In this document: piece after piece, positions 3 through 3,652 of the stretch
How the letters are laid out: each line of letters starts with the position of its first letter
Position numbering within the stretch: the first letter of the stretch is position 1
Virus record (IMG/VR): IMGVR_UViG_3300039309_000221
Location: 1 to 52,776 of that record
Length of the DNA: 52,776 bases
Origin: a virus
Taxonomy: Duplodnaviria; Caudoviricetes
Reading direction: 5' to 3' (one strand)
Notes under the pieces: generated by a model
The model's input: only the letters and a program-made list of their open reading frames with translations
Told to the model about the DNA's origin: nothing
Database searches by the model: none
Made by a program: the position numbers and the translations under genes

Positions 3-626
3 TTAAGTGATGCAGATCGTCAGTTCTTAATATCACCAGAGAATAATATTCCTACTGCCGCACCGGGAGGAAAGGTTGATATTGGAGGAGCGAGAAGGAC
101 TAATAGACAGGAGACGGAAAGTATTGTCATCAAGCCATCGCAGGTCGTCAATCAGATTAGAAAGCCGCAGGCGCAGACACAGGCGCAAGCGTCAGTTCAA
201 CAACCTTCGCCGCAACAGCCGCCTAATCAGCAACTCATCCAAGCATCAGAGAGATACCCGATACAAATACCGAATATAGCTGGGAAGCAAAATATAAATA
301 TACCGAAGGATAATGATGTTTTTACGGATGTATCTTCGCCGACAGTAAGTTCTATTGTTCCCGTTATACAAAGAGTTGTTTCTTCCAATGGAAAAAATAT
401 TCATATAGCTTCGGTCGAAATTATTAATGCTGATACATTGGAAAGTATAAAAAGTACGAGGACAAATGCGGCTGGAAGATGGTCAATATCATTGCCAATA
501 GGAAGATATAGGACATTGATAAGTAAGACTGATATTATGACAAAAGAAAGAATGGAGGTGATAAATGATTTTGTCATCGATGGAAGACAATCTCCGTTAG
601 AGTTAGAAAACGCGGTTCTGAAATGA
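3..626 (+). CDS. Hypothetical protein, 5' truncated by window edge; Gln/Pro-rich linker then a possible small beta-sandwich domain
   Basis: Frame +3 is open from base 3 (LSDADRQFLISPENNIP...) to the TGA at 626; the track ORF 438..626 is only its C-terminal part. Confidence 0.75.
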   Translation, partial: LSDADRQFLISPENNIPTAAPGGKVDIGGARRTNRQETESIVIKPSQVVNQIRKPQAQTQAQASVQQPSPQQPPNQQLIQASERYPIQIPNIAGKQNINIPKDNDVFTDVSSPTVSSIVPVIQRVVSSNGKNIHIASVEIINADTLESIKSTRTNAAGRWSISLPIGRYRTLISKTDIMTKERMEVINDFVIDGRQSPLELENAVLK

Positions 627-943
627 GAAACAAAATATTAAGATACATAAAATACTTTTTTCATATTGGTAAAAATGATTGGGTTAATATAGATATTATT
701 AATAAAAGTAAAAAGAAATCAAAGTTTATAGATATTGATGGAAAAAAGTTAATATTGACAGAAGATTTATGCGGCGATTTTTATGAGAAGCGGATCGGTG
801 GATGTTTGGAGCCACATAGATTAGGCGGTCCTGCGGTAGAAAGCCTTAATGGATATAAGCAATGGTGGTATGAAGGAGAGAATATAAATTGTTCTTCGCA
901 GAAAGAGTTTGAGAGAATATTAAAGTTAAAACTATTTTGGTAA
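623..943 (+). CDS. Hypothetical phage protein with an HRxxGPA-type motif
   Basis: PHRLGGPAVESLNGYKQWWYEG motif; ATGA overlap with the upstream stop. Confidence 0.65.
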   Translation: MRNKILRYIKYFFHIGKNDWVNIDIINKSKKKSKFIDIDGKKLILTEDLCGDFYEKRIGGCLEPHRLGGPAVESLNGYKQWWYEGENINCSSQKEFERILKLKLFW

Positions 944-971
944 ATATATGAATAGAAATAAAAGATATATT

Positions 972-1290
972 AGAAGATAACAGCCACAATTGTCAATAAC
1001 CATCATATATTATGGTGGCTTGTGCGAAGAAATCTAACCAGTTTCTTTTGATCAAGACTAAAATATTGTACTAGACAAGAGTAAAATCAATAAGCAGATC
1101 AGGACCGTATATCTTTTCATCAAAAGAGAAATCTGCGAGACGGAAAAGAAATGGTGAATGTGCTAGCATAAAGCACAGCGGCTTAAAAGGTATATAGAGA
1201 ATGTTTCGCTAGTTTTCTTTCCCTACGATCTGCCTATGTCGAAGCGAGTTGGATAAAGTGCTTACGCACATTTTTTAGAAGGAAATAGAA
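972..1290 (+). ncRNA. Putative omega-RNA (HEARO-like) of IsrB; predicted guide about 972-991, scaffold from about 992
   Basis: About 300-nt non-coding gap directly 5' of isrB; begins GTCAATAACC-hairpin-GGTGGCTTG, resembling IscB/IsrB element left ends; TCGCT (1206-1210) can pair with AGCGA (1243-1247). Boundaries are approximate. Confidence 0.7.
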
Positions 1291-1296
1291 AATAAA

Positions 1297-2328
1297 ATGT
1301 CAGTTCCAGTTTTAGACAGAAATAAAATACCACTTATGCCTTGCTCTGAAAAGCGAGCTGCAAAGCTTATGGATAAGGGGCAAGCGAAGCCATATTGGCA
1401 AAAGGGTATTTTCTGCATAAAGCTGACCAAAGAGCCATCTGCAAGAAATTATCAAGAGGTAGCGTTGGGAATAGACCCAGGAAGCAAAAGAGAGGGTTAT
1501 ACAGTTGCTACTAAAAATAATGTTGTTCTTAACATAACTACAAATACGCCAGATTGGATTAAAATCCATATGGAAACAAGAAGAAATCTACGAAAAACAA
1601 GAAGATATAGGAAAACTCCATATAGAAAATGTAGATTAAATAGAAAAATAAACAAAGGATTTATTTGTCCAAGCACAAAAGCTCGTTGGTGTTCTAAATT
1701 AAGAATAATAAATCTTTTGAGAAGAATATTGCCTATCTCTTTAATAAATGTAGAAGATATAAAGGCGGAGAAAAAAGAAGGTAAAAGCAGATGGAATAGA
1801 AGTTTTTCTGGATTAGAAACTGGTAAAAATTGGTTCTATAAAGAAATAGTAAAATTAAATATTAAACTTATTTTGACAAAAGGAACAGATACGGCAGAGC
1901 ATAGAAAACAAAGAGGTTTTAAGAAATCAAAAAAGAAATTAGATTATATTTGGGAAACTCATAATGTTGATAGTCATTCATTAGCAGAAATAGTTTTAGA
2001 AAAAGAGATAAAACCTTATACTGGAATGTATAGAATAGATTTTCTTCGATATCGTAGGAGACAGTTGCATGTTCAAAACCCTATAAAAAATGGAAAGAGA
2101 AGACAATATGGTGGAACAGTTTCATTAGGACTATCAAGAGGAAGTGTTTTGCGTTATATAGGTAATAATAAAAGTTGGAAAAATAAAATCTATTATTTAA
2201 GCGGAACAAGTAATGGACAATTAACTATCTTAGATCTAAAAGATGATAGAAAAGTTTCTCATTGTATAAAAATAATAGATATAAATATATTATATATTAG
2301 TAAATATAAGGTATTATTTTGTAAATAA
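1297..2328 (+). CDS. isrB: IsrB RNA-guided nickase (IS200/IS605 OMEGA family, RRXRR domain)
   Basis: N-terminal PLMP motif, RuvC-I GIDPG, Arg-rich bridge helix RRNLRKTRRYRK, RuvC-II VED, RuvC-III HNVD; no HNH insert; 343 aa. Confidence 0.88.
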   Translation: MSVPVLDRNKIPLMPCSEKRAAKLMDKGQAKPYWQKGIFCIKLTKEPSARNYQEVALGIDPGSKREGYTVATKNNVVLNITTNTPDWIKIHMETRRNLRKTRRYRKTPYRKCRLNRKINKGFICPSTKARWCSKLRIINLLRRILPISLINVEDIKAEKKEGKSRWNRSFSGLETGKNWFYKEIVKLNIKLILTKGTDTAEHRKQRGFKKSKKKLDYIWETHNVDSHSLAEIVLEKEIKPYTGMYRIDFLRYRRRQLHVQNPIKNGKRRQYGGTVSLGLSRGSVLRYIGNNKSWKNKIYYLSGTSNGQLTILDLKDDRKVSHCIKIIDINILYISKYKVLFCK

Positions 2329-2357
2329 TAAAATTATTAAAAAATGGAATATAATTT

Positions 2358-3059
2358 ATGAGCTATAAAGCTACGATTTTGTGTATTGATCCTCCTTATC
2401 TTTTCAAGGATCCACTTACGATGAGCGAAACTCCTCGTGGAGCGATGTCGAATTATCCTCCTCTAACAATAGAAGAGCTAAAAAAACTACCAATAGCAGA
2501 TATTGCAGACCCATCGGGAGCACTCCTTGCGTTATGGTGTCCCTCATCGCTTATCCAAAGCGGGCTTGATTTAATGAAAGTGTGGAACTTTGATTTTAAG
2601 CAGACTTGGATATGGGTAAAAATTAAAAAGAACATAAATATGAATGGCGATATAAATGATGTTTTAAGTATGTATATGGGTCATACTTTTAGACAATGCC
2701 ACGAAATATGTTTATTGGGCATCAATAATACAAAAGTATATAAGAAGCGTATAAATAAAGCTCAAAGATCGGTTTCATTTGCTGCAAATGCAAGACATTC
2801 AGAAAAGCCAGAAGAATTGCAAAACAGATTAGATATTATGTTCGGAAATAATGTTAATAAAATTGAATTATTTGCTCGTAGGCAGAGAAAAGGGACTATA
2901 TGTATTGGCAATGAGGCTCCTATGACATTTAATGAAGATATTAGATTATCTCTTTCCAAATTAATGGATTTATCAGATGATAAAATATCTTTAATAAAAG
3001 AAACTATTAATTTAGATAAGATTGATAATGAAAAATTAGTTTCTATTTGGAATGATTAG
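2358..3059 (+). CDS. MT-A70 family N6-adenine methyltransferase
   Basis: IDPPY catalytic motif, LALW, WIWVK, HSEKP, IELFAR motifs. Confidence 0.9.
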   Translation: MSYKATILCIDPPYLFKDPLTMSETPRGAMSNYPPLTIEELKKLPIADIADPSGALLALWCPSSLIQSGLDLMKVWNFDFKQTWIWVKIKKNINMNGDINDVLSMYMGHTFRQCHEICLLGINNTKVYKKRINKAQRSVSFAANARHSEKPEELQNRLDIMFGNNVNKIELFARRQRKGTICIGNEAPMTFNEDIRLSLSKLMDLSDDKISLIKETINLDKIDNEKLVSIWND

Positions 3060-3104: not shown

Positions 3105-3118
3105 AATTGATGAGGAAT

Positions 3119-3652
3119 ATGGTTGAGAAAAAAGTTCTTTTGTTAAATGAAACCTACGAAACTCTCTCTTTTATTAACGAGCGGCGGGCATTAAAATTAT
3201 TGTTTAAGGGCAAGGTTGATGTTTTGTCCGTTTGGAATGATGATGTTTTTCTTATCTCTGGCAAAATAAAGTTGCCAGCAATATTGAGATTGAGAAAGAG
3301 AGTTCGCAGAAATTATATTGCTAACAATGGATTTAGTCGCACCGCACTTATCCGCCGAGATGATAATTGTTGTCAATATTGTCAAAAGAGACTGACGCCT
3401 AATCAGCTCACCATAGATCATATTATTCCAAAACAGAGAGGTGGGCAGACAAGTTTTACTAATTGTGTCGTTTGTTGCAAGAAATGTAATTCAGAAAAGG
3501 GTAATAAAACACCAGAAGAAGTTGAAATGAAATTAATAAGGAAACCAGTAGCACCAACATTTTCTTCGTATTATTTTGTTTCTTGTGAGCAAGAGTTTTG
3601 GCATCCAGATTGGAACGATTATCTCGGATTAAATATCAATAAGAAAGTATAA
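3119..3652 (+). CDS. HNH endonuclease (McrA-like)
   Basis: VLLLN..YE.L N-terminus, CQYC, TIDHIIP..GG, NCVVCCKKCN; GAGGA RBS before ATG 3119. Confidence 0.9.
   Translation: MVEKKVLLLNETYETLSFINERRALKLLFKGKVDVLSVWNDDVFLISGKIKLPAILRLRKRVRRNYIANNGFSRTALIRRDDNCCQYCQKRLTPNQLTIDHIIPKQRGGQTSFTNCVVCCKKCNSEKGNKTPEEVEMKLIRKPVAPTFSSYYFVSCEQEFWHPDWNDYLGLNINKKV

What the first reader, a model, noticed from the sequence alone, without database searches (positions are those of the whole stretch)
972..2328. Intact phage-borne IsrB plus omega-RNA with no transposase in the window
Seen: a 343-aa ORF with PLMP, RuvC-I/II/III residues (GIDPG, VED, HNVD), a bridge helix and no HNH, preceded by about 300 nt of non-coding sequence starting GTCAATAACC...GGTGGCTTG. 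No tnpA and no clear right-end hairpin follow the stop. Known: IsrB is an omega-RNA-guided nickase whose guide comes from the sequence 5' of the scaffold. Inference: the guide is about AGAAGATAACAGCCACAATT. The unit may work as an RNA-guided homing or phage-competition nickase, and it is a new compact OMEGA ortholog.
Basis: partly seen in the sequence, partly recalled or inferred. Interest (0 to 1): 0.7.

Follow-up and report, generated by a model that had tools for sequence, protein, structure and literature searches.

The report
IsrB guide-RNA element in huge phage
A fragment of a very large phage carries an intact-looking RNA-guided DNA nickase gene (IsrB) with its guide RNA, a known kind of selfish element, here wedged just before the start codon of a phage methylase gene and with one transposon end worn away.

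Summary
ORF 1297-2328 is a 343-aa IsrB: Pfam RRXRR, phmmer E 2e-40 and a structural match (Z 26.7, 318 of 328 residues) to DtIsrB (PDB 8DMB). It has the PLMP motif, intact RuvC residues and no HNH. The 305 nt before it (992-1296) are a conserved, strongly covarying omega-RNA scaffold.

Rfam's HEARO model does not hit the window. A covariance model built from 22 relatives without the window hits only 992-1085 (E 4e-17).

New here: the element most likely ends at 2357, just before ATGA (2358-2361). That motif is the known IsrB TAM and also the start codon of the MT-A70 methylase gene. The G+C-rich hairpin that relatives carry at this end is absent, and the ancestral reading frame there holds three stops, while the 343 codons upstream hold none. 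At the inferred TAM-reading positions the window has Lys/His where the family has Arg/Gln.

No tnpA lies in the window, which is the norm for iscB/isrB. No empty site or RNA evidence could be obtained.

It is a new member of a known kind. This scan had already reported IsrB elements in huge phages on other DNA.

The parts
972..991 (+). Inferred 20-nt guide segment of the omega-RNA. It is flank DNA, not conserved among relatives.
   Evidence: Conservation among 7 and 24 aligned loci starts sharply at 992. DtIsrB uses a 20-nt guide 5' of the scaffold (PMC9581776). The guide's length and its transcription were not tested. It has a single match in the window at up to 3 mismatches.
992..1296 (+). 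Omega-RNA scaffold. SL1 hairpin 1000-1018; conserved 5' domain 992-1085; window-specific insert about 1105-1190; hairpin 1258-1269; Shine-Dalgarno-like AGAAGGAAA at 1277-1285.
   Evidence: CM R1, built from 22 relatives without the window, gives its only hit in the 52,776 nt at 992-1085: 91.4 bits, E 4.4e-17. The consensus structure has 62 pairs in 11 helices: 89.6% of cells paired against 32-41% when slid, and 39 pairs with changes on both sides against 14-24. The window forms 58 of the 62 pairs.
1297..2328 (+). isrB gene, 343 aa: PLMP domain, split RuvC (D60, E153, H222, D225), bridge helix 87-104, TAM-interacting domain; no HNH.
   Evidence: pLDDT 84.2, pTM 0.80; 8dmb_P E 2.6e-27, TM 0.75/0.78; Z 26.7, rmsd 4.2, 318 aligned, model 1-343 against DtIsrB 6-347. 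The frame has no stop in 343 codons, while the other two forward frames have 38 and 35.
2230..2262 (+). Codons for L312, K319 and H322 in the TAM-interacting domain. The family has His, Arg and Gln at these columns.
   Evidence: H in 29 of 31, R in 30 of 31, Q in 26 of 31; H 104, R 117, Q 92 of 120. The Arg-x-x-Gln spacing and the offset of 4 at the C-terminus match DtIsrB R323/Q326, the readers of TAM G3 and A4 (PMC9581776). The residue correspondence is inferred, not superposed residue by residue.
2329..2357 (+). Decayed stop-codon-side end of the element (the transposon LE in the TnpA convention): 6.9% G+C, no homologous hairpin. The old IsrB frame runs on to TGA 2359-2361 with extra stops at 2329 and 2338.
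   Evidence: An A/T-only 8-bp inverted repeat at 2312-2330 is not in register with the relatives' hairpin and does not resemble SL1.
2358..2361 (+). ATGA: inferred TAM / insertion-site motif. Its ATG is the start codon of the MT-A70 gene 2358-3059.
   Evidence: ATGA lies at the boundary of 8 of 8 viral copies, and in 5 of them the IsrB stop TGA lies inside it. The same holds at many metagenome loci. The IsrB TAM NTGA, ATGA included, is from PMC9581776. For the window alone the coincidence is only modest evidence, with a chance of roughly 0.1-0.2 by my estimate.

Best explanation
This is a non-autonomous IS200/IS605-type (ISC1-like) IsrB-omegaRNA element, spanning about 992-2357, resident in a huge phage. 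It inserted immediately 5' of an ATGA that is both the IsrB TAM and the start of the phage's MT-A70 methylase gene. The omega-RNA is probably transcribed by read-through from the co-oriented upstream gene. It carries the 20 nt of upstream flank (972-991) as guide, followed by a scaffold of about 300 nt. With IsrB it would recognise the uninterrupted allele (guide match followed by ATGA) and nick its non-target strand. In a recombination-rich phage infection this favours copying the element back in, either as retention or as homing into co-infecting genomes that lack it. The filled site is protected because GTCA, not NTGA, follows the guide match. In this copy the end that TnpA needs, next to the TAM, has decayed, so TnpA-driven transposition is probably lost. 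The nuclease gene and the RNA have nevertheless stayed intact. Shown: identity, fold, catalytic residues, RNA conservation and covariation, the 5' boundary, and decay of the other end. Inferred: the 3' boundary and TAM, transcription, nicking activity, and homing.
For: IsrB identity and a complete fold. Catalytic residues are invariant. The omega-RNA scaffold lies upstream of IsrB in every locus with enough sequence (that profile included the window). An independent CM hits only 992-1085. Covariation is strong. Relatives give full-length sub-threshold HEARO hits that start at the same first base. ATGA sits at the boundary in 8 of 8 viral copies and at many metagenome loci, and published TAMs agree: NTGA for DtIsrB, TTCAT on the other strand for GstIscB. 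Mobility of the family: a 327-kb relative has 5 copies plus one IS605 tnpA-tnpB whose hairpins resemble those of the IsrB elements, and L069 has a related copy in unrelated flanks. Selection on the window's gene: there are 0 stops in 343 codons where about 0.095 per codon is expected (P about 1.5e-15), against 3 stops in the 12 codons of the old frame from 2326 to 2361, the present stop included. dN is 0.31 to the nearest aligned relatives with dS saturated. A hairpin-less pair, L032/L033, still shows dN/dS 0.13. The identical insertion is present in two further assemblies of the same phage, and the exact protein occurs on 11 contigs.
Against: There is no empty-site allele, so the 3' boundary and the TAM of this copy rest on analogy. 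There is no RNA evidence. The window differs from the consensus at 9 of 97 highly conserved columns, third highest of 31 sequences. Four of these lie in the TAM-interacting domain, including Lys at the column that is Arg in 117 of 120 sequences, which makes the window unique. In DtIsrB, R323A and Q326A abolish nicking. The C-terminal tail present in relatives is cut off, although the model still aligns to DtIsrB residue 347. A nick alone is a weak trigger for homing. Only about 12% of the genome is in hand, so a tnpA elsewhere cannot be excluded. Rfam HEARO does not hit the window.
Confidence: 0.6

Rival explanations
1. It is an immobilised relic. The element can no longer transpose, the nickase has lost TAM recognition (Lys/His for Arg/Gln, truncated tail), and the open frame survives only because decay is recent or because read-through translation is tolerated.
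For: The end hairpin is lost. The triple L312/K319/H322 is unique among 120 proteins. The window departs from the consensus at 9 of 97 conserved columns. It is a single copy in the window. R323A and Q326A are dead in DtIsrB.
Against: The gene keeps 343 codons open at 30% G+C, while the adjacent 12 codons of the old frame, its present stop included, hold 3 stops. All catalytic residues and 58 of 62 RNA pairs are kept. The element's G+C matches the phage's, which argues for long residence and not recent arrival. His at the Gln column recurs in a second lineage, P0126, which keeps His and Arg at the other two columns. Lys and His are still hydrogen-bond donors.
Confidence: 0.22
2. It is still an ordinary TnpA-mobilised element. 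A tnpA lies in the unseen 88% of the genome, or in the host, and acts on an end I failed to recognise.
For: Only about 12% of the genome is in hand. A related phage carries one IS605 tnpA-tnpB for 5 IsrB copies. L032 and L033, which also lack a recognisable end hairpin, sit at two different sites.
Against: There is no hit to the relatives' end profile at E <= 10. Neither strand folds better than shuffles. The end is 6.9% G+C and has nothing resembling the element's own SL1 hairpin. G002, a 92% complete relative with one IsrB copy, has no Y1 transposase.
Confidence: 0.1
3. It is a domesticated unit serving the phage, for instance nicking competitor phages, or controlling expression of the MT-A70 gene it now precedes.
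For: The gene appears to be under purifying selection without a working transposon end. Its TAM readers are altered. It sits directly in front of a DNA methylase and two genes from a free-standing HNH gene. Published domestication of TnpB into RNA-guided regulators is known to me from an abstract only (PMC10705468, listing).
Against: The catalytic residues are intact, so it is not a dead-nuclease regulator. The guide is simply the adjacent flank, as in any element. It has no other match in the window at up to 3 mismatches and no exact match in IMG/VR.
Confidence: 0.08

Closest known systems
DtIsrB-omegaRNA of Desulfovirgula thermocuniculi (PDB 8DMB; Hirano et al. 2022, PMC9581776)
   Same: Domain order PLMP - RuvC-I - bridge helix - RuvC-II - RuvC-III - TAM-interacting domain with no HNH. 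About 345 aa. A guide RNA of about 300 nt directly upstream with its guide at the 5' end. An SL1 hairpin right after the first stem, and a Shine-Dalgarno sequence in the 3' hairpins. ATGA fits its NTGA TAM. Fold match Z 26.7 over 318 residues.
   Different: Only 28-30% identical. Lys and His stand at the positions inferred to equal R323 and Q326. The host is a huge phage, not a bacterium. No biochemical data exist for this copy.
ISC1-type (IscB1 = IsrB) IS200/IS605 elements of cyanobacteria and Chloroflexota; Rfam HEARO RNA RF02033
   Same: Same protein family: 39-49% identity to loci in Nostoc, Microcoleus, Scytonema, Ardenticatenales and Ktedonobacteraceae. Same omega-RNA 5' domain: R1 hits 14 of 20 such loci just upstream of the ORF. 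ISC1 as the HNH-less class is described in the review PMC13565253 (passage).
   Different: The 54-69% relatives of the window were found only on viral or metagenome contigs, many of 100-412 kb, so this looks like a phage-associated clade. HEARO's gathering score of 83 bits is not reached by the relatives (24-42 bits) or by the window (no hit).
[quoted passage not shown]
   Same: A non-autonomous element with its omega-RNA at the transposon RE and its TAM abutting the LE. The published TAM TTCAT is the reverse complement of ATGAA. Orientation matches the upstream gene. The nuclease targets the donor joint or empty site (passages).
   Different: IsrB is a nickase, not a double-strand cutter. Here the LE-side hairpin is gone, and no TnpA is known for this phage.
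IsrB elements in other huge phages noted earlier by this scan (e1-5401825, e1-5401766, e1-5401783)
   Same: Same clade, same ATGA boundary, insertion just before start codons (my own loci).
   Different: Those copies are multi-copy and keep both ends. This one is single in its 52.8-kb fragment, lacks the stop-side hairpin, has a shortened ORF and has altered TAM-reading residues.

Membership tests
IsrB (OMEGA RNA-guided nickase) | N-terminal PLMP domain | tested here: met
   PLMP at residues 12-15. Pfam RRXRR covers 3-157 at E 8.4e-37. The model's N-terminal beta-sheet aligns from DtIsrB residue 6.
IsrB (OMEGA RNA-guided nickase) | Split RuvC domain with its catalytic acidic/His residues | tested here: met
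   D60, E153, H222 and D225 align with the DPG, ED and H..D motifs of 8DMB. They are invariant in 31 of 31 and in 120 of 120 sequences.
IsrB (OMEGA RNA-guided nickase) | Arg-rich bridge helix inserted in RuvC | tested here: met
   Helix 87-104 in the model. The RRNLRKTRRYRK stretch aligns with that of DtIsrB.
IsrB (OMEGA RNA-guided nickase) | No HNH nuclease domain between RuvC-II and RuvC-III | tested here: met
   No HNH family at E <= 0.1. 68 residues separate E153 from H222. 318 of the 328 resolved DtIsrB residues align, and IscB chains align only with large unaligned inserts.
IsrB (OMEGA RNA-guided nickase) | TAM-interacting domain with the Arg and Gln that read TAM G3 and A4 in DtIsrB | tested here: inconclusive
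   The domain fold is present to the last residue. At the inferred columns the window has K319 and H322, where R occurs in 117 of 120 and Q in 92 of 120. The correspondence rests on spacing and offset, not on a residue-level superposition.
IsrB (OMEGA RNA-guided nickase) | Cognate structured omega-RNA of about 300 nt directly upstream, with its guide at the 5' end | tested here: met
   Searches show conservation, covariation and the boundary. Transcription was not tested.
IsrB (OMEGA RNA-guided nickase) | Guide- and TAM-dependent nicking of the non-target strand | not testable with these tools
   This needs biochemistry.
IS200/IS605-family (ISC1) transposon | Similar subterminal hairpins at both ends | tested here: not met
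   The omega-RNA-side hairpin (SL1, 1000-1018) is present. The other end has none. Relatives have both, and the two resemble each other.
IS200/IS605-family (ISC1) transposon | Y1 (HUH) TnpA transposase in cis or in trans | tested here: inconclusive
   There is none in the 52.8-kb window, but about 88% of the genome is unseen. One of the two distinct large relatives has a tnpA-tnpB element (G003, with G001 as its shorter copy), and the other, G002, has none.
IS200/IS605-family (ISC1) transposon | Insertion beside a short conserved target motif equal to the nuclease's TAM | tested here: met
   ATGA lies at 2358-2361, in frame with the old stop. It is at the boundary in 8 of 8 viral copies.
Rfam HEARO RNA (RF02033) | Score at or above the gathering threshold (83 bits) | tested here: not met
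   The window gives no hit at E <= 1 (6 kb), at gathering (whole window) or at E <= 10 (371 nt). Four of 7 relatives score 24-42 bits over the full model length.

The most novel reading that the evidence does not exclude
This is a phage-adapted IsrB-omegaRNA that no longer depends on any TnpA. With its transposon end gone and its TAM readers changed to Lys/His, it persists under selection as a pure RNA-guided homing nickase, a gene drive among co-infecting huge phages. It is parked so that the start codon of a phage methylase doubles as its TAM.
Probability: 0.22. Interest if true: 0.65.

Novelty: new member of a known kind. Interest (0 to 1): 0.38.

Why it matters
IsrB and IscB are the transposon-borne ancestors of Cas9, and their natural role has been worked out in bacteria as transposon retention. 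Copies living in huge phages offer a natural test of whether an RNA-guided nickase can spread or persist by homing alone. Phage genomes recombine intensely and meet empty alleles in co-infections. This copy is useful for that question because its transposase-dependent end has decayed while the gene and the RNA stayed intact. Its Lys/His variant of the TAM-reading pair could also widen the TAM range of this compact editor family. In itself it is one more member of a known family, and this scan had already reported the same kind of element in huge phages on other DNA.

Tried and rejected
Empty site. Relatives of the MT-A70 gene were not found in IMG/VR. Relatives of the upstream 106-aa ORF were too distant (37-65% over parts). 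Exact searches of IMG/VR with the first 26 nt of the methylase gene and with the 20-nt guide gave 0 hits. The 394-kb relative G002 was fetched whole and compared with the flanks of the five copies of the 327-kb relative. It showed no syntenic empty site.

RNA and population evidence. The look-up of sequencing runs listed 15 DNA runs holding at least half of the sampled words, and 5 metatranscriptome runs holding 12-19%. These runs were never laid, so they are evidence of nothing.

Promoters. The scan found 10 promoter-like sites against 9.4 expected, which is uninformative.

Single-sequence fold of 972-1296: z -2.19, weak on its own.

A link between loss of the end hairpin and loss of the TAM-reading Gln. 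All 5 non-Gln sequences were among the 9 hairpin-less loci of 31. That classification was made partly by eye and after the fact. The tree gave only 3 independent pairs on supported branches, so the test had no power. In 120 database proteins, with a peptide proxy for the hairpin, the link was weak (6 of 42 against 22 of 78, p 0.11). I do not claim it.

A candidate adaptor pseudoknot between the SL2 loop and a downstream GGT/GACTGG block was examined by eye only and dropped.

Literature. Four searches found no paper describing IsrB or IscB elements native to huge-phage genomes. One paper reports a host IsrB-like ORF inserted at an ATGA in cyanophage Mic1 (PMC11237433, passages). Altae-Tran et al. 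2021 was not in the library, and I did not ask for supplementary files. Their IsrB catalogues may already list phage-borne members.
Full report
WHAT IS THERE. The window is a complete IMG/VR record of 52,776 nt that CheckV rates 12% complete. It encodes a large terminase, a portal protein, an endolysin-like protein and a DNA polymerase, so it is a fragment of a very large phage. ORF 1297-2328 (+) is 343 aa.

The ORF matches Pfam RRXRR (PF14239, E 8.4e-37) and no HNH family. phmmer against PDB sequences finds DtIsrB (8DMB) at E 2.1e-40 over residues 3-281. GIDPG, VED and HNVD align to the corresponding DtIsrB motifs.

An AlphaFold2 model built from 31 aligned relatives has pLDDT 84.2 and pTM 0.80. 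It matches 8dmb_P best by Foldseek (E 2.6e-27, TM 0.75/0.78). VIA-align gives Z 26.7, rmsd 4.2 A and 318 aligned residues, with model 1-343 against DtIsrB 6-347. IscB and Cas9 chains follow with lower scores.

D60, E153, H222 and D225 are invariant in 31 of 31 relatives and in 120 of 120 database homologues.

THE RNA. Seven upstream regions, the window plus six IMG/VR relatives of 54-60% protein identity, are unalignable up to the base before GTCAATAACC. They are strongly conserved from that G onward, which is window position 992. The same holds for 24 loci.

RNAalifold on that alignment gave 27 pairs, 21 of them with compensatory changes. I then derived a fuller consensus structure after removing gappy columns and counted it on the alignment. 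It has 62 pairs in 11 helices and 89.6% of cells paired, against 32-41% when the 3' partners are slid by 1-3 columns. There are 39 pairs with changes on both sides against 14-24 when slid, a covariation score of 0.432 against 0.07-0.10, and 0 of 500 shuffles reaching the observed values.

That structure was derived from the same alignment, which favours it somewhat. The window itself forms 58 of the 62 pairs. Three of the four failures lie beside a window-specific insert of about 75 nt, where the alignment is unreliable.

Rfam finds nothing in the window: not at E <= 1 over 6 kb, not at gathering over the whole window, not at E <= 10 over 371 nt. Four of seven relatives give full-length but sub-threshold HEARO hits (24-42 bits, gathering 83) that start at exactly the same first base.

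A covariance model of the 5' domain, built from 22 relatives with the window left out, has one hit in the whole window on both strands: 992-1085, 91.4 bits, E 4.4e-17. It also hits 14 of 20 cellular IsrB loci just upstream of their ORFs. The RNA is therefore a divergent HEARO/IsrB omega-RNA. The 20 nt before it (972-991) are where DtIsrB carries its 20-nt guide (PMC9581776, passages). Its true length and its expression are untested.

THE OTHER END, AND THE TAM. In the relatives, conservation runs through the end of the ORF to a sharp edge. All 8 viral copies have ATGA at that edge. In 5 of them the IsrB stop codon is the TGA of ATGA, and the ATG opens the next gene, which stays open for at least 80 codons. 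Many of the 33 metagenome loci I printed show the same arrangement.

NTGA, and explicitly ATGA, is the TAM of DtIsrB, read 3' of the target. For IscB elements the omega-RNA sits at the transposon RE, and the TAM abuts the LE. The published GstIscB TAM is TTCAT, the reverse complement of ATGAA (Meers et al. preprint, passages). A host IsrB-like ORF was reported to have entered cyanophage Mic1 at an ATGA (PMC11237433).

In the window, the first ATGA after the stop is at 2358-2361. It is the start of the MT-A70 gene (Pfam PF05063). It lies in the IsrB frame, which reads TAA TAA AAT TAT TAA AAA ATG GAA TAT AAT TTA TGA. This is one codon shorter than the tail of the relatives.

I therefore place the element at 992-2357, with ATGA as the old insertion motif and TAM. 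For this copy alone the coincidence is only moderately unlikely. The argument rests on the family pattern, and no empty site was found to prove it.

DECAY OF THAT END. Relatives carry a G+C-rich hairpin just inside this end. It resembles their own SL1 hairpin at the RNA end, as expected for the two TnpA-recognised hairpins of IS200/IS605 elements.

A profile of that end finds it in most loci but gives no hit in the window at E <= 10. The window's last 80 nt fold no better than shuffles on either strand, while those of relative L002 do on the minus strand (z -2.24). The 29 nt after the stop are 6.9% G+C. The only inverted repeat there is A/T-only and out of register.

No Y1 transposase lies in the window. 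The 327-kb relative has five IsrB copies and one IS605 tnpA-tnpB element with similar hairpins. The 92%-complete 394-kb relative has one IsrB copy and no tnpA. Absence of tnpA next to iscB/isrB is the rule (about 1.5% association).

IS THE UNIT STILL WORKING? Several points favour this. The 343 codons contain no stop where about 0.095 stops per codon are expected from composition (P about 1.5e-15), and the other two forward frames have 38 and 35 stops. The 12 codons of the old frame from the present stop at 2326 to the old stop at 2361 contain three stops: the present stop and two more. The element's G+C equals that of the phage, which suggests long residence. The catalytic residues and the RNA structure are kept. 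The model's C-terminal strand aligns up to DtIsrB residue 347, inside the beta7 segment whose deletion kills DtIsrB. Another pair of copies without an end hairpin (L032/L033, 89% identical, in unrelated flanks) evolves with dN/dS 0.13, like hairpin-bearing pairs at 0.19.

Other points argue against it. The window departs from the family consensus at 9 of 97 highly conserved columns, third highest of 31 sequences. It has Leu, Lys and His where the family has His (104 of 120), Arg (117 of 120) and Gln (92 of 120). The Arg-x-x-Gln spacing and the C-terminal offset match DtIsrB R323/Q326, the residues that read G3 and A4 of the TAM. R323A and Q326A are inactive, and Q326R relaxes the fourth position.

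The window is the only one of the 120 sequences with Lys at the Arg column. His at the Gln column recurs in one other lineage (P0126). The TAM preference may therefore be altered, or the activity reduced; I cannot tell which.

MECHANISM AND RIVALS. The best reading is a non-autonomous IsrB-omegaRNA element that can no longer be moved by TnpA but whose RNP still targets the uninterrupted allele. The filled site escapes because GTCA follows the guide match. This gives retention or homing during phage recombination.

Only the anatomy is shown. Transcription, nicking and homing are inferred from DtIsrB, the Geobacillus work and the review PMC13565253, which lists 'transposon non-restorative homing' into co-infecting phages as a category (passages).

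The rivals are an inactive relic, an element that TnpA can still mobilise, and a domesticated function. Each is scored in its own section.

RELATION TO WHAT IS KNOWN. The exact protein occurs on 11 contigs, and the next relative is 69% identical. There are 1173 proteins with E <= 1e-30 among the candidates scored, and many of the closest lie on contigs of 100-412 kb. In one genome per species of bacteria and archaea, the best matches are 39-49% identical (cyanobacteria, Chloroflexota).

The window therefore belongs to an IsrB clade that so far appears on phage-like contigs. That search works through peptide patterns and is not exhaustive. This scan had already reported such elements in huge phages on other DNA, including the insertion before start codons and the ATGA TAM. 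My analysis of independent loci agrees.

Four literature searches found no paper on IsrB native to huge phages. I did not see supplementary catalogues.

VERDICT. This is a new, somewhat decayed member of a known kind. Interest is moderate and comes mainly from three features: the intact nuclease and RNA beside a decayed transposon end, the Lys/His TAM-reader variant, and the phage setting.

Noticed in passing
L001, L002, L003, L005, L009 (for example L005:5041-5044) and many of L029-L066: In relatives the IsrB stop codon TGA overlaps the ATG of the next phage gene (ATGA), so the insertion creates a stop/start overlap that could couple translation of the host gene to IsrB. In the window this overlap has been lost, because the stop lies 29 nt earlier.
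   Followed up: partly
L032:1074-2369 and L033:1599-2889: Two 89%-identical IsrB elements lie in unrelated flanks. Neither has a structured end on the stop-codon side, and their omega-RNA 5' domain differs from the GTCAAT type. dN/dS is 0.13. How they reached two sites is unexplained.
   Followed up: partly
L016:449-1884 (the same element in L015): The 327-kb relative carries one IS605 tnpA-tnpB element. Its end hairpins resemble those of its five IsrB elements but read on the opposite strand, which fits IsrB genes lying antisense to the TnpA-defined orientation.
   Followed up: partly
window 3107-3652: A free-standing HNH endonuclease gene (Pfam HNH_5, E 8.7e-17) lies directly after the MT-A70 gene. 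Two selfish-type nuclease genes therefore flank the methylase.
   Followed up: no
window 815-943 and L012 (at least seven places): The C-terminal 43 residues or so of the 106-aa ORF 623-943 (a Trp/Tyr-rich motif) recur many times along the 6-kb viral contig behind L012, as if they were a repeated module. No Pfam or PHROG family matches.
   Followed up: no
window 128-284: Nearly all differences between the window and a 99.5%-identical assembly of the same phage (L028) cluster here, inside the 5'-open ORF 3-626. They include a 3-nt deletion. The IsrB element is identical in the two.
   Followed up: no
window 1105-1190: A window-specific insert of about 75 nt in the omega-RNA, with two small hairpins, sits at a place where other relatives (L037, L043, L054, L063) also carry inserts of different sequence.
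   Followed up: no
window 700-2700: Five metatranscriptome runs hold 12-19% of the sampled words of this stretch. That amount is about the length of the omega-RNA, but the runs were never laid, so which part they hold is unknown.
   Followed up: no
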